A stretch of 64,000 bases of DNA from Escherichia phage OSYSP. The stretch is taken from sequence record MF402939; one strand, given 5' to 3'. A program made the translations under genes and the position numbers. The notes under the pieces are model-generated. The model saw only the letters and a list, made by a program, of their open reading frames with translations, was not told the origin of the DNA and searched no databases. This document shows positions 30,870 to 60,866 of this stretch, one piece after another; the stretch's first letter is position 1; every line of letters begins with the position of its first letter.

Positions 30870-32657
30870 TTAGGTAAGGCGTTGAACTGTTACTCTTAAT
30901 CTCGGTAGGAAAATAGCTGCAGCCTCATCAGCGTGAATAATTACGCCCAATTCAGCATTACCATTTCCTAGATTTTTAATAGTATAAATATATCCGTTTC
31001 TTCTAAATGTTAACTCATCAGGTCTACTTGCCCAAGTTTGAGTATAGCTGTATGCAGTAGTGGAGTGATAAGGGACTAAGTATCCAGGAGGTAAGGTTAA
31101 TATTTGATGGAATATTCCATCACCTTCCGTGTAACTATGCTGTCTTCTTCCTTGTACTTGCCAAGCAACACCACCATATGTGCGTATAGCTCCTCCTGCG
31201 GTATTAATATTCCCCATGATAACTTCAGTAGTTAATATTACTGTTGCGTTAGCGTTAGGCAATCCTAATCCTATGGTGGCCAAAGCTCTATAGTAGTTAC
31301 CTGCTCCAGGATATGTTGGAGTTATATCATCGCCAACGTAAGTGCTAGCAACATTATTAGGAAATAGTCTTAAGGGTACAGTACTAGGACTCCACACAGC
31401 TCCATGCTCATTACCTATAGTGTTATTACTTGAGTTTACGTACCATTGCTTACCCGCTCCGAATTTGTAAATACTAATTTGAGACTTAGCCCCTCCATAA
31501 TCTACGGGAGACCATAAAGATCCATTACTAGATCCTACAATTTCACAGCGCGCAGTAGTATCCCCGAAGGCTCCAGTGTACGCTGCGTTATTTCCAATGT
31601 ACTCCATATCTGGCCTATAGCCTAAGTTACCAAAAGCATTTTGGTTGATAAACTTATATCCAGTATTTGGTAAACTAACCCCTTTTATAGTAAAATTAGA
31701 TGGAGTTATAAGTATATCTGACCCAGTAAATGGATTACCGGATACGCCCATATTACCATTAGAGTACCTTAGATTAAGTACATACCAAATAACTTTGGTA
31801 GGTGTAATATTATAACCATCCTGCACATATACTTTCTTAGCGGCCTGTGCTGCTAGATTAGATGTTGAACCTTTACATATATAAACCTTATCAGGGTAAG
31901 TAGGAGATTGGTACAATAAGTTAACATTATCGGGTACTGTGCCTTTTTTACCTACGTAACTTCGTATATTAGAGTTACAAACGTAAAAACAATTATGCCC
32001 TCTATGGGCGGCCCCTATAGGAGCTTGCCAGTTAGGATGCCAGTAGTCAGCATTACCACCGTCTATAGGTACTGTAGACGCTCCCGCTGGAAATCCTGCT
32101 AAAGTCCATGCCCTACCTATAGCCTCACCAGCATATGCTCCTCCCGGCCTATATAAATTAAACCCGGAGGCTTGAGATATAGTACCTCCTGTACCTTGCC
32201 TAGCAATTGATTCTTCATGGCCTAAACCAGAGTTATAAATATAGGTGCCATGTGCTAAACTATTACCTGATGCAAAAGCTGACGTAAGACCTACTTCTGC
32301 ACCTGCCCTACCAATAGGCGGATCTTCAAAAAATGTAGTAAATTGACCAACTTGAGATTGAGTACCATTAAGAAAAGCCCTATGAGTACCATTAATCTCA
32401 ATAGCAGTTAGTATAACTCTACCTGGGTCATTGGATTTAATATTTATTATGTCAGAAGGCATCTGACATACAAAAAACCCATTTCCGGCATTACCTAGCC
32501 CAGCCTCGTAAGTACCATCAACTAGGACAAATGGCATATCACTATGAAAAATACTATTGGCATTTGGACTATAGTGACGATTAATGTCACCCCCAGATTC
32601 AGTATTTAAAGATAGTACGGTCTTACCATCGCTATACTTTCCAGCGAAAAAACCCAT
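30870..32657 (-). CDS. Receptor-binding tail protein (T5 pb5-like)
   Basis: 595 aa; Gly/Asn/Tyr-rich; divergent from and adjacent to a lipoprotein gene exactly as the T5 oad-llp pair. Confidence 0.7.
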
Positions 32658-32682
32658 ATAATCTCCTATTATAAAAATGTAT

Positions 32683-32711
32683 TTGCTTTTATCCCTCTAT
32701 TTTGCTATAAT
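32683..32711 (+). promoter_or_regulatory. Strong early promoter for llp (TTGCTT, 17 bp spacer, TATAAT, then AGACTCATAAATTAGA)
   Basis: Hexamers and start region read directly; strong resemblance to T5 PN25 architecture as remembered. Confidence 0.65.
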
Positions 32712-32742
32712 AGACTCATAAATTAGAAATGGAGAGATAAAT

Positions 32743-33009
32743 ATGAAAAAGTTTGTGATTGCACTAGTTGCCGCAGTTATGTTGTCTGGTTGTGCACCTG
32801 CCCCCAAACCATTTTGTACGGGATTTGTAAAATCTTTTGGCGGTGCGGGAGAGGAGCATTACGGCCTCAAGGTTCAAAAAGTTCGTATTAAGGGAGATCG
32901 CTTTCCAGTAGTACAGCTCCGTACTAAGTTTGGGTGGTGGGATCTCAGTCAGTTTGACCTTAAATACGGTGATTGTAAATTTAAACTAGAGCAATCTAAC
33001 TACCTGTAA
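32743..33009 (+). CDS. llp: Lytic-conversion lipoprotein Llp-like (receptor-blocking, superinfection exclusion)
   Basis: Signal peptide plus lipobox LSGC; 88 aa; divergent neighbour of the receptor-binding protein gene. Confidence 0.75.
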   Translation: MKKFVIALVAAVMLSGCAPAPKPFCTGFVKSFGGAGEEHYGLKVQKVRIKGDRFPVVQLRTKFGWWDLSQFDLKYGDCKFKLEQSNYL

Positions 33010-33122
33010 TTAGTATAAAGCAAAAAGACATCCAAGTAAACTAAATTTTTTATTTCTTGGACGGTATACTGGCAGAAACCACTATATAAGAAAAGTAGAA
33101 GTCCTTCTAGGAAGTCGCAAGC

Positions 33123-33314
33123 ATGGTTGGTTATGCACAAACTATAAAATATTTTAAATACCACACTTATAGGAGCATGAAAGATATGTCAAACAAAAGA
33201 AAGAGTAGGCGCGGAGAAGTGTACGATAGTTGGATTAATAGTTTTGGATTCGGAACTATCCTATTCTTTATTTTCGTAGGTTTTTGGTTAGCAGCTATGG
33301 CGGGGTGGATTTAA
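33123..33314 (+). CDS. Small membrane protein (63 aa)
   Basis: C-terminal hydrophobic helix ILFFIFVGFWLAAMAGWI; AGGAAG RBS; first gene of a four-gene overlapping operon. Confidence 0.5.
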   Translation: MVGYAQTIKYFKYHTYRSMKDMSNKRKSRRGEVYDSWINSFGFGTILFFIFVGFWLAAMAGWI

Positions 33315-33421
33315 TGGAATGGGTAATTATTGCGTTGCTAGGGATTGTGATTATTGGGCAATGTATTTTAGATAATCACTTAGCTAGAATTGAAACTTTA
33401 CTAACGGAGAAACGTAAATGA
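33314..33421 (+). CDS. Small membrane protein (35 aa)
   Basis: ATG overlaps previous stop (TAATG); hydrophobic N-terminus WVIIALLGIVIIG; not in the ORF track because under 60 aa. Confidence 0.4.
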   Translation: MEWVIIALLGIVIIGQCILDNHLARIETLLTEKRK

Positions 33422-33612
33422 TGGAAGTAGTAGCTACACTAATAGTAATACTAGTCTGGGCAACTTTCATTGTTTCTTATAACGCGTATGTTCGCCTAAA
33501 AACTCTAGAGGCCCAGGTAAAGCAGCAACAATTTGCACTAGAAAAATTAGTAGAGCTTCAACGCTGTGATAGTACCCGTATTCTGCAAATTGAGAGGGAA
33601 TTAGATGTTTAG
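33418..33612 (+). CDS. Small membrane protein (64 aa)
   Basis: ATG overlaps previous stop (ATGA); N-terminal TM helix followed by coiled-coil segment. Confidence 0.5.
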   Translation: MMEVVATLIVILVWATFIVSYNAYVRLKTLEAQVKQQQFALEKLVELQRCDSTRILQIERELDV

Positions 33613-33850
33613 TATTATAATTGCTTTTATTATCGGGATACTCACGGGAGTTTTCGGAATGACTGCGGCAATCAACAAGCATCGTAAATATATTGCGGAA
33701 GTATCGCGGGAGATTGCGGAAAGGGAGCGGAAGTTTGATGAGAAACGTGCGGAGTTCGAACGAGAGTGGTCGGACGGTTCTCGGGCGTCGCGGAAGAGAT
33801 TCCGTGAGTTCAGACCAGAATACAGGTTTGATGACCCTTCTATGCGCTAA
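33605..33850 (+). CDS. Small membrane protein with charged C-terminal tail (81 aa)
   Basis: GAGAGGG RBS; N-terminal TM helix IIIAFIIGILTGVFGM; Arg/Glu-rich C-terminus. Confidence 0.5.
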   Translation: MFSIIIAFIIGILTGVFGMTAAINKHRKYIAEVSREIAERERKFDEKRAEFEREWSDGSRASRKRFREFRPEYRFDDPSMR

Positions 33851-34002
33851 TTTGACTTTTGCCAATTTCTTTGGATTACGTACGCGTGGGTGTGTCCAGT
33901 GGCCCCCCAGATGAGAATGAGTCTCATTACCGCCTGGTACTTAGCAGGCTAATAGTCCCGGCATGTTATCATTACACACCGGGACTATTTCAACTTTAAT
34001 TA

Positions 34003-34737
34003 CTACGCAACTTTTAATTTCTCAATATATTGTTGCGGGCTGCAACTATATTCTGCGCGTTCTTCTTCGGTCATACCTTCCCAACATAATTGCAGGCGGT
34101 CGGCTAGGAACTGATAATCATTATCATCCTCAAGAGATTCATCGATAAAGGTTTCACCTATCAATGTAACCCCAATCGATAGAATATCGTTAACGGCTTG
34201 TGCGTCCAGCGTTTTAAATCCGTATGATGCCGCCGCTGATAGCACGCCTTTATGATCATCAATCATCGTGAAATCAGCGTTCGGATATAATTGTTTAAAT
34301 AACTCAAAGTAATGGCTTTTATAAATAGCGTCTTTGCTGTGGTATATTTCGCTAACTTTATCAGCCTCAAAATATTTGTGTAGTGTATCGCGGGAAAATA
34401 CACGGATATTACTATCCCCACGCCCTCGCAATCCTTGTTTACGCAAATAATAATAATCCGACTTGCTCATCAGTCGAGCGGTGCAAATAATGTTTAATGT
34501 ATTTGCGTCATTCATGCACTGGCGCATATATGTAACAAGGGGCAATAAAGTATCTTGCATTATTAAATCATGTTTGCAGGCTTCATTTTTATACTTATTT
34601 AAATCTAAATTGCCCTCGCTATCAAAGCAAGGCGCTACACGATGGAAAGAATTAATGATAGTGCCGTCCAGATCCCAAATCATGACGCGGGAAATATGCG
34701 GGAAATTACGGGTAATATTCATTTTAACTTGATTCAT
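34003..34737 (-). CDS. dmp: HAD-family 5'-deoxynucleotidase (T5 Dmp-like)
   Basis: HAD motif I IWDLDGTI near N-terminus; start chosen at MNQVK (GGAGAA RBS 9 nt upstream) giving 244 aa; the track ORF extends to 34779. Confidence 0.65.
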   Translation of the reverse strand: MNQVKMNITRNFPHISRVMIWDLDGTIINSFHRVAPCFDSEGNLDLNKYKNEACKHDLIMQDTLLPLVTYMRQCMNDANTLNIICTARLMSKSDYYYLRKQGLRGRGDSNIRVFSRDTLHKYFEADKVSEIYHSKDAIYKSHYFELFKQLYPNADFTMIDDHKGVLSAAASYGFKTLDAQAVNDILSIGVTLIGETFIDESLEDDNDYQFLADRLQLCWEGMTEEERAEYSCSPQQYIEKLKVA

Positions 34738-34817
34738 TTTGTTACGTTCTCCATTAAAGGGATTTAGTTTATCCAGCATTGCCCGCTATTTATCAGCGGG
34801 CAATAATAAATCAACTA

Positions 34818-35210
34818 TTAAAGACCATAAGCCAACGCATCAGCGATAAAACTAATATCTTCACCTGATACGCTGGAACGAATCCCCGCACAAGTATATA
34901 CTTTTGCGCTGATCAATTGATCATCGAGGCAAGCGGGGCAAGGCGCGACAACTGCAAAGGCTAGGCCGGATTTTACGGCGTCGATGATAATCGTTTCTTG
35001 TTTCACAGTATCAACATAAACACCTTTTGCTTTAATATGGCTGGTTAGTTTACCTTGCATATATGCAAAGGTAGTAACCTGCAAAGCGTCATTAAAATCT
35101 AATAGGTCATCAATAACGTGCCCCGCCTCGACGTGGTAACGTTCACCATTAGAATAAACCAGAACAATTGAGGACTGAGCGCGATCGAATGGAATATTTT
35201 GCTTTTTCAT
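34818..35210 (-). CDS. Hypothetical pre-early protein (130 aa)
   Basis: GGAG RBS; CPAC motif; no family recognised. Confidence 0.5.
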   Translation of the reverse strand: MKKQNIPFDRAQSSIVLVYSNGERYHVEAGHVIDDLLDFNDALQVTTFAYMQGKLTSHIKAKGVYVDTVKQETIIIDAVKSGLAFAVVAPCPACLDDQLISAKVYTCAGIRSSVSGEDISFIADALAYGL

Positions 35211-35248
35211 ATTTATAAAACTCCAATTAGTTTAATAATGGATTTAAT

Positions 35249-35506
35249 TTATTTGATAATAATCTGCATCTGGTACGGCGTTAATTCACCGTTTACGGGT
35301 AAATTATTATCGCTCAGCCACTCATAAAAAGCGTCATCGTCATCAAAAGGAACAATATCGTTATCACGGGAATCGACGGAAATAATACCATCCGTATTAG
35401 TTTTGGCGGCTAGGATAGGCCCGAAGCTGTAAACTTTATCAGATTCCATTTCATCCGGTGAAATGAATACTTTTTCGTCTAATGTTTTGGGAAGAGTAAC
35501 TTTCAT
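35249..35506 (-). CDS. Small acidic protein (85 aa), candidate DNA mimic
   Basis: AGGAG RBS; about 19 Asp/Glu versus 8 Lys/Arg including a DDDD run. Confidence 0.5.
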   Translation of the reverse strand: MKVTLPKTLDEKVFISPDEMESDKVYSFGPILAAKTNTDGIISVDSRDNDIVPFDDDDAFYEWLSDNNLPVNGELTPYQMQIIIK

Positions 35507-35561
35507 TTAATTTAGCTCCTATAATAGCGGCTATATTTCAAGCCGCTAGGGTATTAATTAT

Positions 35562-37226
35562 TTACGCGAAAAATTTACCGTTTTTAAAGTCGATCAAAGT
35601 GCGCTGACCGTTTGCATAGGTAATAACATGCGTTTGCGTCCAGCTTGACGCGCCAACGTTGTAACCCATGTCCAGACTACCAGCTACGCCAGCGGTATAT
35701 ACCCCGCCGTAAATGCTTGCCGTATGAGTATGCCCCGTGTTTAATTTGCCCAATTTCTTAAACTGTTTAGGATTGCCACGGCTGCCGTTAATGCCATTGT
35801 GACCGTGTACGCCGCACTCGATGCCTGCAATTTTAAATGATTGGTCAGTTGTTAGGAAAATGGCGTTAAATTCACAACCTGCAACCTTACGCAGCGCATA
35901 ATCAAGCACGTTGAAAGTATCGTCATGATCACCGATTGCCGCGTAAATTGCAGCATTTAGGCGGTGATATAGTTCCGCGTTTGCGGGATCGTCTTTAATG
36001 TTAGCATTACGATCATCAAGCCAACGGGATAGCGCTAAATCGTGGTTTGATTCCACGATGATTGTTTGAGAAAAATCGCGCTCCATTGACTCCAGCACGC
36101 GCCCCGTATCGATGAGATCATCCAGAACCTTATCACGTCCGGCGGCGTATTGTTTTGCTAGGAATACACCCGAAGCGCGGTTGTGATGGTTGCGGGATGT
36201 AAAATCATGCACGTCATGAATAAACTGATATTTAGGCTTGAGAATATCAAGCAAGCTATTTTCGCCAGCCCATGACGCAACGGCGCAATCGTCATCTAAT
36301 TTTTCGGCGTGAATATCGCCATATTGCAAGCCTAAAACATGCCCCGATGTTTCATAACATCCGGCGGGAGTGGCGCAAATATTCAAATCGTAAAACACGC
36401 CGCTTTCGTCCATCGTTTCAAGCTGGCGAACAAAAAATTCTCCGTCTTCGTCAAACTCAACAACAAGCGCACCGAAATTATGCAGCGCCTCGGCCTTTTG
36501 TCCTGCTTTCTGCTGGATGTAATTTTTTAGGGTTGCCGTTCCAGTTGAATACATACGACGCACTACTTCACCTTTTAAAGCTGGCACGCTTTCGGCGGTA
36601 ATTTTAGCGTGACCAATTGCCAGACCTTCCAGATTAAGCGCCGTTGCAGTTTCAGCGAATCCAGAAAGCGGATAATCTGCGGTTGGCAAAACGTTAATTT
36701 CAGCCATGAAAGCAAAACGGCGGTTATTTAAAAACACGTTTTTATTGCAGATATATTTGTCAAATGCGGAATCATATTTTATTCCTTCTGCACCCTCGCC
36801 ATTTTGAAAACCGTTTTTGTTATAAATAAACTTGCTAACCAGCAAATCAGCGCCGATATATTTAGCAAATTGCTCCAGTGAGGCTAAAAAGTTTTTATGC
36901 GGGAAAGTATTATTCTGAATCGACGTAATAATAAAGCGTTTACCCTGCTTTACTTCCCATTGCTCAACCGTGCTAGAAACAATCCCCGCCGCTTCTGGAC
37001 GCTCATCGTTTTTAATGGCTTTTGCTACTTTCGCCGCTTTCGGTTTAGCTGGTTTATTTGCTTCCAACCAGTCGCAGATAGCGGTCGAGTGTTTTGTTGT
37101 ATCGTAGACCGCTTTTGATATATCGTCGCAGACCTCCAGTTTAGTAGCGCGCAGACGTTTACCATAGAAATTAAAGTCAGCGGCCATTTTCAGGATAACG
37201 GTTTGTTTTTCTGCGGAAATAATCAT
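35562..37226 (-). CDS. A1: A1-like pre-early protein with metallophosphoesterase motifs
   Basis: 554 aa (T5 A1 about 556); calcineurin-like motifs GDIH, HDVHD, ESNHD, GHTH; sits beside an A2-like gene. Confidence 0.75.
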   Translation of the reverse strand: MIISAEKQTVILKMAADFNFYGKRLRATKLEVCDDISKAVYDTTKHSTAICDWLEANKPAKPKAAKVAKAIKNDERPEAAGIVSSTVEQWEVKQGKRFIITSIQNNTFPHKNFLASLEQFAKYIGADLLVSKFIYNKNGFQNGEGAEGIKYDSAFDKYICNKNVFLNNRRFAFMAEINVLPTADYPLSGFAETATALNLEGLAIGHAKITAESVPALKGEVVRRMYSTGTATLKNYIQQKAGQKAEALHNFGALVVEFDEDGEFFVRQLETMDESGVFYDLNICATPAGCYETSGHVLGLQYGDIHAEKLDDDCAVASWAGENSLLDILKPKYQFIHDVHDFTSRNHHNRASGVFLAKQYAAGRDKVLDDLIDTGRVLESMERDFSQTIIVESNHDLALSRWLDDRNANIKDDPANAELYHRLNAAIYAAIGDHDDTFNVLDYALRKVAGCEFNAIFLTTDQSFKIAGIECGVHGHNGINGSRGNPKQFKKLGKLNTGHTHTASIYGGVYTAGVAGSLDMGYNVGASSWTQTHVITYANGQRTLIDFKNGKFFA

Positions 37227-37576: not shown

Positions 37577-37984
37577 TTATTCGCCTGCGGCTTGTTTTAC
37601 TTCATCGGCAACGCCTAACAGTTGCGCCACGGCGTCCAGTGTTTCAAGTTTTGCACTTTCCAGACTTGCCAGATCATCGGCGTCTTTGATAATGCCGGAA
37701 TCAATAGCATGTTTAGCGATAACGCGTACATAGTGAGCTTTGCGGATTGAGCTACCGCCGCCAACTTTGCGCGGCTTATCGCTTTTCTGATACGCTTTCG
37801 CGCTGGTCAATTTTGACCGAACGGATACGGGAGAAGCCGCGCCCACTGCTTTTGCAATCTCTTTTAAACCGTAGCTATTTGCGAAATCTAAACCGTTTTC
37901 ATTGATTAACTGCTGATACATGGAAACGGCTTTTTGGGTGTTTTCTTCATTCCAAGCAAATTTTGCGGTTTTAACGTTAGTCAT
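37577..37984 (-). CDS. A2: A2-like pre-early DNA-binding protein
   Basis: 135 aa; GGAG RBS; basic central region; immediately upstream of the A1-like gene. Confidence 0.6.
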   Translation of the reverse strand: MTNVKTAKFAWNEENTQKAVSMYQQLINENGLDFANSYGLKEIAKAVGAASPVSVRSKLTSAKAYQKSDKPRKVGGGSSIRKAHYVRVIAKHAIDSGIIKDADDLASLESAKLETLDAVAQLLGVADEVKQAAGE

Positions 37985-38395: not shown

Positions 38396-39223
38396 TAAGC
38401 AACAATCCGCTCACCGCTATAATCAATTTAAAGAACTCCATGCAGGCCGCTATATCCCAGTTAGGGGGCGGGACACATTATGGTAAGTGCCGACCGTCAG
38501 ATTTTATCAAGTTATCGCTCTTATCGAACTGAGTACATCTTAAAGCCTATCGGCTAGGTTGTCAAACAATTTTTTGCAGTTTTTTATAATTCTCTTTCAA
38601 GTCAATCATAATATTTCGCCAGATCATTTCTAAACCTTGCTGGCGGCCTTTCTTGTACTGCGTGAATCGGTATTTTACCGATCTTTGCGCTACTGTCAAC
38701 AAATTTTTTGTTTTGCTGTCCAGTGCCTTGCTAGGTTTACCAGTGATCAATAAAGTTTGTTTCATATCTGCGATTCCTTATAATGTATAAGTTTACCGCC
38801 GATAGACTTTAAGATGTACCCAATTTTTAAAGAGCGCGGCGGTAAACTTCCCGCCGTGTAGTTCGTCATTGCCGCCCTACGAGATAAATAATAAGGGATT
38901 CACAAAAATGGCGCAACCTTATTTTTGTAAAGAAACGTAAAGACAAATGCCACCGGACACCGTGCGGCGACCTGGGCGCGACGCACTAAAATTAAAAGAA
39001 ACGGGCGCGCGAATACCACAAAACATAGCAGATAGGCAAGTAATTTTTTCATTTATATTTGCTTTGCCCTACTTGACAAAATCTAAAAAACTCGTGGTAG
39101 CGATAAACGAGGGTAGGCAATGCAATGGCATGGCTAAAAACTTCATCGCGTTCTAGGGCGTTTTAGGCGCATTCTAGCCTTGTTGATAACTTATCCCCAG
39201 AAGCAAAAATGAAATTTTCCTAG

Positions 39224-40971: not shown

Positions 40972-41466
40972 ATGTCAGAAGAAAAATATGGCTTCTCACT
41001 GGGAGAAGTGAGCACGGCTAAACACGATATGATCATTTTGGTCGATTGTCATACTGGCTATTGCGGAGAAGGCTGGACGGAGGAACATTTTGTTCCAGCT
41101 GGCTGTAATCTGGACGCTTTCGCTCAGGAAATGGCTGTTGATAATGCTTCTCGTTTCGGTAGCGATGGCTATGAAGACGAGGAAACTGGCGAATGGTATG
41201 AAAATGAAAACGTATACGCTAGTCTTTATCATTATCAATTAAGTAAATCCGGCGCATATGTAAACGGCGGCGATCCTATTAATTCCATCATGAGATTAAT
41301 TATTAAACATGGTGGCGTCGAGATAATTGATAACAAAGCGGTAATATACGCAAACCGATTAAAACAGCTTGTTTATATTCCTGATAATACCCGATGGGAT
41401 GAATATGCTGTTTTGCATGACGAATTGAAACGATGTTTCAATATTGAATCCTTACAAGTAGTCTAA
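40972..41466 (+). CDS. Hypothetical pre-early protein (164 aa)
   Basis: Start at MSEEKYG with RBS AGGAGG (the track ORF begins at 40924); acidic, Cys-containing. Confidence 0.55.
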   Translation: MSEEKYGFSLGEVSTAKHDMIILVDCHTGYCGEGWTEEHFVPAGCNLDAFAQEMAVDNASRFGSDGYEDEETGEWYENENVYASLYHYQLSKSGAYVNGGDPINSIMRLIIKHGGVEIIDNKAVIYANRLKQLVYIPDNTRWDEYAVLHDELKRCFNIESLQVV

Positions 41467-42000: not shown

Positions 42001-42213
42001 ATGATCCGCAACGTTTCTCTTGCTCGTTCGAAAGGCTTTAAGCTGGTGGACGTTAACACGTTCGAGCGTGAAGATTGTAAAATCGAATATGTAGCGCGGA
42101 ATAAAAACGCCTTTCGTGTTACCGAGAAAAAATTCGATAAGCGCGGCAACGTGGTCGCTGAAACGGTTAAACATTTTGCCACCTTTTACGCTGCGTTTCG
42201 TGGGGTACTATGA
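42001..42213 (+). CDS. Hypothetical pre-early protein (70 aa)
   Basis: AGGAG RBS; basic; ATG 3 nt after the previous stop. Confidence 0.5.
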   Translation: MIRNVSLARSKGFKLVDVNTFEREDCKIEYVARNKNAFRVTEKKFDKRGNVVAETVKHFATFYAAFRGVL

Positions 42214-50262: not shown

Positions 50263-50694
50263 TTACCAATCGTTAACAACGCCGGAGAACTCAGAAGCAA
50301 AAACTTTTTCAAATTTCTCTGCAATTTCAGGATGATCTTTGCAGATCAGCTCAATACAGGCTTCTGGAGCCATTCCTTCATCTTCAGGATCACCATAGTA
50401 TTTATCCCAAAGATCATCAGGAATGATATGCTCCGCCAAATCTTGGAAAGATATTAACTGATAACGTTCTGCTTCCTCGGGGATAAGGATTTCACAAAGA
50501 TCTTTATCTATATCGCTACGATAATCCGCAATTAATAAGGCATTGCAAGCATGACATTCCCAGACCATCAAACGTTCAGAGATAGGATTAGACTTATCCT
50601 GAACGTAAGACTGGAACAAGGTTCGGAAAGTTGCCTTAACTTGTTCAAACTTATCTGCTGCTGCGAAAACTAGAGCTTTATCAACTTTGTTCAT
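50263..50694 (-). CDS. Hypothetical early protein (143 aa), acidic
   Basis: ORF in early array. Confidence 0.45.
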   Translation of the reverse strand: MNKVDKALVFAAADKFEQVKATFRTLFQSYVQDKSNPISERLMVWECHACNALLIADYRSDIDKDLCEILIPEEAERYQLISFQDLAEHIIPDDLWDKYYGDPEDEGMAPEACIELICKDHPEIAEKFEKVFASEFSGVVNDW

Positions 50695-60300: not shown

Positions 60301-60592
60301 CTTCACCTTCAAAGTCGCAATCATAACGACAAGTAAAAGAATCAGAACTATTAGTACGTTGAGTGGTTATTTCACCGCGTTTGCTAATAGTAACGGCTGG
60401 AGTAGAGAAGTTTTTATTAGTATATATTTCTACTTTACCATTACGTTCCTTAACATCACGCACTTTACCATATTCAGTAATGATGCCGTTCTGTTGTACC
60501 CTAACATTCCCATTTTTCATAGAAACTTTGGTAGATGCCAGAGAACCGAAACTAACTGCGGAGATCATCAGTGCAATAATAAACTTATTCAT
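60293..60592 (-). CDS. Secreted small protein with C-terminal Cys pair and acidic tail
   Basis: Start at MNKFIIALMISAVSFGSLA (signal peptide); ends CRYDCDFEGEDE. Confidence 0.45.
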   Translation of the reverse strand: MNKFIIALMISAVSFGSLASTKVSMKNGNVRVQQNGIITEYGKVRDVKERNGKVEIYTNKNFSTPAVTISKRGEITTQRTNSSDSFTCRYDCDFEGEDE

Positions 60593-60866
60593 CTTCGTCC
60601 TCCCCACTACAATCACGACATACATCATAATCGTTGAGAGAACGTTCGTGAGCTTCACACCACCAAGAACAAGAATCGCAGAGGAACATTTCGGTTTTCT
60701 CCAGTGCTTGACCTAAAAGATCATCAGATTCCTCAGCAGTAATCTTCAATCCGCACACATCTGCCACACGTTCTTTAATTAAACGACCTGCTTCGTGGTA
60801 AGACATACAGGTTCCCGTAACATCATGTTCAAGAACATGAACAGCACAGTCTAGACGAGTTTTCAT
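60585..60866 (-). CDS. Cys-rich small protein with acidic tail
   Basis: CDSCSWWC ... CRDCSGEDEDE. Confidence 0.45.
   Translation of the reverse strand: MKTRLDCAVHVLEHDVTGTCMSYHEAGRLIKERVADVCGLKITAEESDDLLGQALEKTEMFLCDSCSWWCEAHERSLNDYDVCRDCSGEDEDE

What the first reader, a model, noticed from the sequence alone, without database searches (positions are those of the whole stretch)
35249..35506. Small strongly acidic pre-early protein, candidate DNA mimic or enzyme inhibitor
The 85-aa product has about 19 Asp/Glu against 8 Lys/Arg, including a DDDD run, and is encoded among genes injected first. Small acidic proteins in this position in other phages act as DNA mimics that block restriction enzymes or inhibit uracil-DNA glycosylase. 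This is inference from composition only.
Basis: inference. Interest (0 to 1): 0.5.

Follow-up and report, generated by a model that had tools for sequence, protein, structure and literature searches.

The report
Acidic accessory pre-early protein, T5-like phage
This is a real, conserved gene for a small, very acidic protein that a T5-like phage makes in the first minutes of infection; it sits in a swap-in/swap-out slot next to the host-DNA-destroying nuclease gene A1, its function is untested, and nothing found here supports the suggested DNA-mimic role.

Summary
The ORF at 35249-35506 (-) is real. It has a good RBS, lies in the leftward pre-early operon of a Tequintavirus, and shows dN/dS of 0.04-0.1 among close relatives. 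It has the lowest pI (4.05) of 91 ORFs in the window. The true counts are 17 Asp/Glu and 7 Lys/Arg, not 19 and 8.

Acidity is a family trait (pI 4.05-4.85). The DDDD run is not conserved.

The protein belongs to PHROG 8297 (unknown function). This is a tiny family found only next to A1 in T5-like phages: about 15 clusters among 1.84 billion representatives. T5 lacks it and carries T5.003, a remote paralogue, at the same place.

The A1-to-002 interval is a cassette slot. It holds this gene, T5.003, other small acidic ORFs, tandem pairs, a homing endonuclease, or nothing, between conserved flanks.

A confident AF2 model (pLDDT 89) gives four strands, a helix and a strand. It has no significant match to any solved structure, and no DNA mimic appears among the listed matches.

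The T5 paralogue is non-toxic and dispensable in laboratory E. coli.

Best reading: an accessory, fast-diverging pre-early protein that binds a non-essential host factor, probably defence-related. The target is unknown. DNA mimicry is possible but unsupported.

The parts
35249..35506 (-). CDS of the 85-aa acidic protein (stop codon included). Member of PHROG 8297, called fam85 in this report.
   Evidence: ORF and translation. PHROG 8297 E 2.4e-50. dN/dS 0.04-0.1. AF2 model pLDDT 89.
35516..35520 (-). Ribosome-binding site AGGAG, 9 nt before the ATG.
   Evidence: Read directly from the sequence. The same RBS context precedes the alternative cassette ORFs in T5 and Bas33.
35525..35548 (-). Hairpin TAGCGGC-N10-GCCGCTA between the A1 stop and the RBS. 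It is the conserved 5' boundary of the cassette slot.
   Evidence: RNA fold gives -14 kcal/mol with z -1.6, so it is not exceptional thermodynamically. It is nearly identical upstream of three dissimilar ORFs (window, T5.003, Bas33_0183) and is replaced by a different hairpin where the slot is empty. It is not followed by a T-run, and the scan called no terminator here on this strand.
35211..35248 (-). Conserved 3' boundary of the slot (AAATTAAATCC...TAATTGGAG), carrying the RBS of the 002 homologue.
   Evidence: Alignment by eye of the junctions in window, T5, Bas33, S116 and two empty-slot phages.
35562..37226 (-). A1 (554 aa), the upstream neighbour. In T5 it is an essential pre-early protein, a predicted metallophosphatase that drives host DNA degradation.
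   Evidence: 94.6% identical to T5 A1. PHROG 1745. Role taken from bioRxiv 10.64898/2026.04.02.716235.
34818..35210 (-). Homologue of T5.002 (130 aa), the downstream neighbour. Function unknown.
   Evidence: 93% identical to T5.002. PHROG 4576.
34003..34779 (-). dmp (5'-deoxyribonucleotidase), last gene of the leftward pre-early operon.
   Evidence: 98.4% identical to T5 Dmp over 244 aa, 34006-34737.
38537..38699 (-). Two strong sigma-70-like promoters (11/12 and 10/12 matches to consensus) that probably drive the leftward operon containing the gene.
   Evidence: Consensus scan. They lie at the position of T5 promoters P_H22 and P_D/E20, which overlap hdi. No minus-strand terminator-like site lies between A1 and the gene. 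Consensus matches only; not tested.

Best explanation
The ORF is a genuine pre-early accessory gene of a Tequintavirus. It is co-transcribed with A2, A1 and dmp from the strong leftward FST promoters, so the protein is made within the first minutes, while only about 8% of the genome is in the cell.

The product is a soluble 9.6-kDa protein. Its predicted fold is a four-stranded beta-meander, one amphipathic helix and a further strand. The conserved N- and C-terminal hydrophobic stretches (MKVxLP, QIIIK) are likely edge strands.

It belongs to a small superfamily of acidic proteins found only in T5-like phages. Members are exchanged as cassettes in one slot between A1 and gene 002. The superfamily includes T5.003.

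Most likely mechanism (inferred, not shown): it binds stoichiometrically to a non-essential host protein, probably part of a variable defence or DNA-metabolism system, and neutralises it. The likely contact surface is the conserved patch formed by D45, D48 and D50 in the strand 3/4 turn and E62-W63-x-x-D66 on the helix. The DDDD run is probably not involved.

Shown here: gene reality, pre-early location, family limits, cassette behaviour, fold prediction, conserved residues.
Inferred: the protein-binding inhibitor role and its link to defence.
For: Reality and expression context:
- ORF, RBS and operon position.
- Purifying selection.
- In Bas33 the gene occupying this slot is a different ORF type, but it is transcribed along with A1.

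Family:
- PHROG 8297.
- Only about 15 genuine clusters among 1.84e9 representative proteins.
- Wherever enough flanking sequence was available, the gene lies downstream of A1, directly or after one small ORF (L059). This includes the most distant members found.

Accessory and fast-evolving:
- Present in 181 of 462 T5-like records.
- Present in 11 of 27 distinct IMG/VR contigs. The others carry T5.003 (4), a homing endonuclease (4) or nothing (8).
- Tandem combinations occur.
- Identical flanks surround dissimilar ORFs.
- The protein is 46-56% identical between genera in which A1 is 92-93% identical.
- Patchy, rapidly diverging, cassette-like early genes are typical of counter-defence genes (established knowledge; see the abstract of bioRxiv 10.1101/2023.04.06.535777).

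Non-essential target:
- The paralogue T5.003 is not toxic in E. coli (PMC8201957).
- T5 with only four pre-early genes is viable (bioRxiv 10.64898/2026.04.02.716235).

Binding surface:
- Acidic character is conserved (pI 4.05-4.85).
- Acidic positions 19, 45, 48, 50, 62, 66 and 74 are at least 88% conserved, beside a 96%-conserved Trp63.
- The model is confident: pLDDT 89, pTM 0.75.

Unassigned pre-early functions still exist in T5-like phages: protection from restriction, CRISPR and RecBCD, and avoidance of methylation (PMC10644984; bioRxiv 10.1101/866236).
Against: - There is no direct evidence of any binding partner, and no phenotype is known for this family.
- The experimental data concern only the remote paralogue T5.003 (hhalign probability 93%, about 19% identity).
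- The fold has no informative neighbour, so function cannot be transferred.
- Acidity alone is weak evidence. Several other T5 proteins are just as acidic, and two of them act as PARIS triggers rather than known inhibitors.
- The constant position next to A1 could instead point to a phage-internal role.
- An empty slot in about 30% of relatives is compatible with an anti-defence role, but equally with any dispensable function.
Confidence: 0.45

Rival explanations
1. DNA mimic or classical enzyme inhibitor. The acidic surface imitates the DNA backbone and blocks restriction enzymes, RecBCD or Ung early in infection.
For: - Lowest pI in the window and net charge about -10.
- The acidity is conserved across the family.
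- Pre-early expression context.
- T5-like phages have unassigned pre-early protection against restriction, CRISPR and RecBCD.
- Size and charge resemble Ugi, Arn or Im9-sized inhibitors (my own knowledge).
Against: - No sequence or profile match to whichever known mimic or inhibitor families are in Pfam, NCBIfam, PADLOC or the PDB.
- The DDDD run is not conserved.
- T5 shows all these phenotypes without this gene.
- Restriction-sensitive Epseptimavirus phages carry the gene.
- Bas26, which is restriction-sensitive, carries the T5.003 paralogue.
- A third of relatives have nothing in the slot.
- The Ung-directed pre-early protein is already present at 42001-42210.
- In PARIS escape screens of T5 the acidic triggers were ORF094 and ORF103, not the slot gene.
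Confidence: 0.12
2. Phage-internal modulator of the A1 (and A2) machinery. A small acidic partner encoded right after the nuclease gene would temper, target or chaperone A1, in the manner of a nuclease-immunity pair. That could help spare phage DNA or time second-step transfer.
For: - The gene lies downstream of A1 in every context examined, directly or after one small ORF, including the most distant members.
- It is in the same operon as A1.
- Nuclease-immunity pairs such as colicin E9/Im9 or barnase/barstar have small acidic inhibitors encoded just downstream (my own knowledge).
- How T5 spares its own DNA is unexplained.
Against: - A1 is in all 227 Demerecviridae genomes analysed, whereas T5.003 is in fewer than 15% of them. 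fam85 is in about 39% of T5-like records, and the slot is empty in 8 of 27 contigs.
- A1 varies by 3-8% across phages that carry quite different slot contents.
- T5 reduced to A1, A2, hdi and 009 still infects and degrades host DNA.
- A1 alone is toxic and sufficient for chromosome digestion, so any modulator is optional.
- The predicted fold is unlike the helical Im9 (fold from my own knowledge), and no immunity protein is among the listed structural matches.
Confidence: 0.12
3. A factor in phage-phage or phage-mobile-element competition. Examples would be exclusion of a co-infecting phage, or a decoy or trigger interacting with prophage- or satellite-encoded systems, rather than an inhibitor of chromosomal host defence.
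For: - Cassette-like turnover and tandem arrays.
- Other acidic T5 proteins are sensed by the satellite-borne PARIS system.
Against: No specific evidence. It is indistinguishable from the best explanation with the present data.
Confidence: 0.07
4. Functionless or selfish filler: a decaying ORF or the remnant of a mobile cassette.
For: - Dispensable slot, empty in many relatives.
- Homing endonucleases use the same site.
Against: - Strong purifying selection.
- Intact ORF in every carrier examined, including the duplicated NBEco002 locus.
- Confident compact fold with invariant core residues.
Confidence: 0.04

Closest known systems
T5.003 (YP_006831.1; PHROG 23906), hypothetical pre-early protein of phage T5
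   Same: - Same slot between A1 and 002, with the same flanking hairpin, RBS and downstream junction.
- Small and acidic: 92 aa, pI 4.2-4.8.
- Remote homology by hhalign: probability 93.4%, E 2.4e-7 over 73 columns.
- A bridging sequence, P0034, hits both HMMs.
- Same order of strands and helix in the AF2 models.
- Both have unknown function.
   Different: - BLASTP finds no similarity; identity in the profile alignment is about 19%.
- The two can sit in tandem in one phage, so they are not simple alleles.
- T5.003 is rarer: 33 records against 181.
- The experimental data (non-toxic, dispensable) exist only for T5.003.
- The T5.003 model has low confidence, pLDDT 61.
Phage DNA-mimic and small acidic inhibitor proteins (T7 Ocr, ArdA, T4 Arn, PBS2 Ugi, phi29 p56, lambda Gam, T7 gp5.9)
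   Same: Small, strongly acidic, made at the very start of infection, non-essential in permissive laboratory hosts. The properties of the known proteins are from my own knowledge.
   Different: - No sequence, profile or structural similarity to any of them.
- The predicted fold is beta-rich with a single helix. Ocr and Gam are helical (my own knowledge).
- The phyletic pattern does not track restriction insensitivity.
- No target is known.
Ptr1 and Ptr2 (T5 ORF094 and ORF103), acidic T5 proteins that trigger the PARIS system
   Same: Small, highly acidic T5-family proteins of unknown primary function (PMC10802454).
   Different: They are other T5 ORFs (094 and 103), and the T5 slot gene was not among the PARIS escape loci. 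No sequence relation was tested or claimed. The window's other very acidic ORFs (50263-50694 and 60585-60866) may or may not be their homologues.
Nuclease-immunity pairs (colicin E9/Im9, barnase/barstar)
   Same: An acidic protein of about 85 aa encoded immediately downstream of a toxic nuclease gene in the same operon. Properties of the pairs are from my own knowledge.
   Different: - The partner is optional, being absent from many A1-bearing phages.
- The fold is not helical like Im9.
- A1 works and is toxic without it.

Membership tests
PHROG 8297 (uncharacterised T5-like phage protein family, 'fam85') | Full-length match to the family profile | tested here: met
   E 2.4e-50, residues 1-85 against profile positions 1-85 of 85. 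25 database homologues at 32-95% identity.
PHROG 8297 (uncharacterised T5-like phage protein family, 'fam85') | Genomic position downstream of A1 in the pre-early operon of Demerecviridae | tested here: met
   Window; Eos, PRF-SP13 and S116; ENA contig; distant members P0033, P0034 and P0036. In L059 one 80-aa ORF lies between A1 and the family member.
T5.003 family (PHROG 23906) | Detectable sequence similarity to T5.003 | tested here: not met
   BLASTP gives no alignment with E <= 100. The two are separate PHROGs. Only profile-profile homology is found, probability 93.4%. The relation is at superfamily level, not family membership.
DNA-mimic proteins (functional class) | Strongly acidic protein with conserved negative charge | tested here: met
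   pI 4.05, net charge -10. Family pI 4.05-4.85; seven acidic positions are at least 88% conserved.
DNA-mimic proteins (functional class) | Surface carboxylates arranged with the spacing of B-DNA phosphates | not testable with these tools
Only secondary structure and pLDDT were returned.
DNA-mimic proteins (functional class) | Binds the DNA-binding site of a host enzyme and competes with DNA | not testable with these tools
   Requires biochemistry or complex prediction. Neither was available.
Ocr (T7 gp0.3) and ArdA anti-restriction families | Match to the family profile, and for Ocr the elongated helical dimer fold | tested here: not met
Ugi, p56 and SAUGI uracil-DNA-glycosylase inhibitors | Sequence or fold similarity to a known Ung inhibitor | tested here: not met
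Nuclease immunity proteins (Im9 or barstar type) | Obligate co-occurrence with the cognate nuclease | tested here: not met
   A1 is universal, but the slot is empty in 8 of 27 contigs and holds unrelated ORFs in others.

The most novel reading that the evidence does not exclude
The A1-to-002 interval of T5-like phages is a dedicated counter-defence cassette site. Its small acidic proteins (this family, T5.003, the Bas33_0183 type, the Eos60 type) would share a previously undescribed fold, and each would neutralise a different host immune or DNA-surveillance protein during the first-step-transfer pause. This 85-aa protein would then be the founding member of a new anti-defence family. It might be one of the long-sought pre-early factors that shield the rest of the incoming genome from nucleases.
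Probability: 0.15. Interest if true: 0.7.

Novelty: new variant of a known kind. Interest (0 to 1): 0.35.

Why it matters
T5-like phages resist most nuclease-based defences once their pre-early genes have been expressed. The genes responsible have not been identified since the 1970s (PMC10644984; bioRxiv 10.1101/866236).

This work does not identify such a gene. It does show that the flagged ORF is a selected, fast-diverging accessory gene in a well-defined exchange slot. Its predicted fold has no counterpart among solved structures.

That gives a short, concrete list of cassette proteins to test against defence-system panels in T5-like phages. It also cautions against reading 'small and acidic' as 'DNA mimic'.

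Tried and rejected
1. Pfam, NCBIfam and PADLOC scans gave no family for the protein or its slot relatives.
2. A PDB sequence profile search gave only chance-level hits, E >= 0.22.
4. An exhaustive HMM search of 1.84e9 representatives found no cellular or annotated relative. The two long hits (P0032, P0038) are repetitive proteins and look compositional.
5. I first read the NBEco002 locus as a natural disruption. That was wrong: it is a 127-bp tandem duplication of the RBS plus codons 1-33, followed by an intact copy.
6. I considered the hairpin upstream of the RBS as a terminator or attenuator. It has no T-run, was not called by the scan, and its folding z-score is only -1.6.
7. I checked whether Rad (retron anti-defence) or the PARIS triggers correspond to this gene. 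They do not.
8. Homology of the Bas33_0183-type ORF to this family could not be supported: hhalign probability 3-11%.
9. The Bas33 RNA-seq table shows the slot gene is transcribed, but in Bas33 that gene is a different ORF type. It is therefore only indirect support.
10. The CRISPRi-ART paper's main text gave no gene-level data on T5 pre-early genes.

Full report
**What the window is.** The 4-kb region around the finding is 92-94% identical at the DNA level to many T5-like phages (Tequintavirus), with 462 matching records. The window contains homologues of every gene of the T5 first-step-transfer (FST) region except 003, hegG and 016. Protein identities are 67-100%. The leftward block runs from hdi (38565-38765) through 007, A2 (37577-37984), 005, A1 (35562-37226), the flagged ORF and 002 (34818-35210) to dmp (34003-34779). 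Two strong sigma-70-like promoters lie at 38537-38699 on the minus strand, where T5 has P_H22 and P_D/E20. No terminator-like site on that strand separates A1 from the flagged ORF.

**The observation.**
- The ORF at 35249-35506 (-) encodes 85 residues, with AGGAG 9 nt upstream of the ATG.
- It has 12 Asp + 5 Glu and 6 Lys + 1 Arg. That is 17 and 7, not about 19 and 8. The pI is 4.05 and the net charge about -10. A DDDD run occupies residues 55-58.
- It has the lowest pI of 91 non-overlapping ORFs in the window and the third most negative charge per residue.
- It is clearly coding. Against close relatives there are 7-19 synonymous and 2-5 non-synonymous changes, giving dN/dS of 0.04-0.1.

**The family.**
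- The protein matches PHROG 8297 (unknown function) end to end. It matches nothing in Pfam, NCBIfam or PADLOC.
- tblastn finds it in 181 phage records. These are Salmonella, Escherichia and a few other enterobacterial T5-like phages, in two identity groups: 103 records at 80-99% and 78 below 60%.
- Word-indexed searches of 5.8e9 proteins gave 25 homologues.
- An exhaustive profile search of 1.84e9 representatives gave only 17 hits. Fifteen are proteins of 67-94 aa and two are long repetitive proteins that look compositional.
- Wherever enough context exists, the gene lies downstream of A1, directly or after one small ORF. This holds in Tequintavirus, in Epseptimavirus (S116, PRF-SP13), in the unclassified Markadamsvirinae phage Eos, and for the most distant members P0033, P0034 and P0036.
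- All members are acidic, with pI 4.05-4.85 and net charge -4 to -11.
- Acidic positions 19, 45, 48, 50, 62, 66 and 74 are at least 88% conserved. V25, Y26, D48, F54, L64, G73 and T76 are invariant, and W63 is 96% conserved.
- The DDDD run is not conserved. The commonest allele is DDDG, and other members read DDYD, DSPS, NDYS or NNTA.

**A cassette slot.**
- T5 itself has no copy of this gene in its FST region. At the same place it carries T5.003, which BLASTP does not relate to the window protein.
- Profile-profile comparison does relate the two families: probability 93.4%, E 2.4e-7 over 73 columns. One distant member, P0034, hits both HMMs. AF2 models of both give the same order of four strands, a helix and a strand. 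The T5.003 model is of low confidence (pLDDT 61).
- In 27 distinct IMG/VR contigs carrying A1, the A1-to-002 interval holds this gene in 11, T5.003 in 4, a 169-aa HNH homing endonuclease in 4, and nothing in 8.
- Tandem pairs also occur:
  - this gene plus T5.003, in an ENA contig and in the record named 'Campylobacter phage C13';
  - this gene plus a probable remote paralogue in Eos;
  - a distant member plus a Bas33_0183-type ORF;
  - an unrelated 80-aa acidic ORF plus a distant member.
- The window, T5 and Bas33 carry three dissimilar ORFs between almost identical flanks. Upstream is a hairpin plus RBS (TAGCGGCTTGARATATAGCCGCTATTAYAGGAGC). Downstream is AAATAAATTAARTCC...TAATTGGAG. Empty-slot phages have a different hairpin there.
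- Every ORF seen in the slot except the endonuclease is acidic, with pI 4.05-4.85.
- The slot protein is only 46-56% identical between phages whose A1 proteins are 92-93% identical.

**Structure.** With a 26-sequence alignment, AF2 gives a confident model: mean pLDDT 89 and pTM 0.75. It has strands at 25-28, 31-35, 41-45 and 50-54, a helix at 57-66 and a strand at 73-75. The N-terminus is of low confidence.
- Foldseek against 350,542 chains gives a best E of 0.14.
- No DNA mimic, Ung inhibitor or immunity protein is among the listed matches.
- BFVD returns only uncharacterised phage proteins, the best from T5-like phages of Yersinia, Klebsiella, Pectobacterium and Escherichia.
- By helical periodicity, E62 and D66 lie on one face next to W63. 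With D45, D48 and D50 in the strand 3/4 turn they are the best candidates for a functional surface.

**What is known experimentally.** Nothing is known for this family.
[quoted passage not shown] Gene 003 is found in fewer than 15% of Demerecviridae genomes, whereas A1 is in all 227 analysed (bioRxiv 10.64898/2026.04.02.716235).
- In Bas33 the slot gene is a different ORF type. It is transcribed together with A1 and 002 (PMC13250531 supplement).
- The pre-early factors that protect T5-like phages from restriction, CRISPR and RecBCD, and that prevent Dam and Dcm methylation, remain unidentified (PMC10644984; bioRxiv 10.1101/866236).

**Interpretation.**
- Against a general anti-restriction, Ung or RecBCD role:
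  - T5 shows all these phenotypes without the gene.
  - Restriction-sensitive Epseptimavirus phages carry the gene.
  - Restriction-sensitive Bas26 carries the T5.003 paralogue.
  - A third of relatives have nothing in the slot.
  - A 98.6%-identical homologue of the T5 Ung-dependent nickase is already present at 42001-42210.
- Against an obligate partnership with A1, the optional presence of the gene counts in the same way.
- What the data do support is an accessory gene under purifying selection within lineages, diverging fast and being exchanged between them, expressed at the earliest moment. This pattern is typical of counter-defence and host-takeover genes.
- I therefore favour a stoichiometric binder of a non-essential, variably present host protein (confidence about 0.45).
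- The alternatives are DNA mimicry of a narrower target (about 0.12), modulation of A1/A2 (about 0.12), a role in inter-phage competition (about 0.07), and no function (about 0.04).

**Novelty and interest.** The ORF is already annotated as hypothetical in many genomes, and its paralogue has been handled in two T5 studies. The gene as such is not new. New here are:
- the remote link to T5.003;
- the definition of the A1-to-002 cassette slot with conserved flanks and interchangeable small acidic ORFs;
- a confident predicted fold with no counterpart among solved structures;
- the negative evidence against the DDDD run and against known mimic families.

This is a reasonable lead for anti-defence screening. 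It is not a surprising finding in itself, so I score interest at 0.35.

Noticed in passing
window 40972-41466 (+): A 164-aa acidic ORF (pI 4.55, 28 D/E against 12 K/R) lies between the homologues of T5.011 and T5.012 in the rightward pre-early block. It has no counterpart in the T5 FST region. It matches PHROG 6741 (unknown function) and no Pfam or NCBIfam family. It looks like a second accessory acidic pre-early gene.
   Followed up: partly
window 50263-50694 (-) and 60585-60866 (-): These are the two other most acidic ORFs of the window: 143 aa, pI 4.35, DUF7020/PHROG 4979; and 93 aa, net charge -14, PHROG 2855. T5 has two 'highly acidic' proteins (ORF094, ORF103) that trigger the PARIS defence system. 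I did not check whether these ORFs are their homologues.
   Followed up: no
L015 3501-3882 (= L016, L026, L027; phage NBEco002): There is a 127-bp tandem duplication of the RBS plus the first 33 codons of the gene. Its junction lies at a CTAGCCGC microhomology between the 3' arm of the upstream hairpin and codons 31-33. This leaves a 37-codon stub followed by an intact 85-codon copy.
   Followed up: yes
L025 5239-5748 (also L036, L037, L038, L044): In some T5-like phages the A1-to-002 slot is occupied by a 169-aa basic ORF with an HNH-type homing endonuclease motif instead of a small acidic gene.
   Followed up: partly
L058 4670-4960 (Bas33 HildyBeyeler, bas33_0183); L060 1238-1528: A third type of slot ORF: 96 aa, pI 4.1-4.2, starting MKINLPS and ending ELTNYSPSITVQ. 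It has no PHROG or Pfam family. Similarity to the window protein is limited to the termini and is not statistically supported. It is transcribed pre-early in published Bas33 RNA-seq data.
   Followed up: partly
window 30870-34003: The receptor-binding protein gene (pb5-like, 30870-32657), the llp lipoprotein gene (32743-33009) and some small ORFs run directly into dmp, which in T5 lies near the left genome end. The window therefore comes from an assembly in which the terminal repeat is collapsed or the genome is permuted.
   Followed up: no
window 34003-34779 (-): The dmp ORF can be read as 258 aa from an upstream ATG, but similarity to T5 Dmp (244 aa) begins at 34737. Both lengths occur in related phages, so the true start may be the internal one.
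   Followed up: no
search results: T5-like sequences carrying this locus are deposited under unlikely host names ('Campylobacter phage C13', Listeria phage records, an 'Enterococcus faecalis' protein 99% identical to T5.003, and a 'Salmonella enterica' protein on a 113-kb contig). These are probably contaminating or co-isolated T5-like phages.
   Followed up: no
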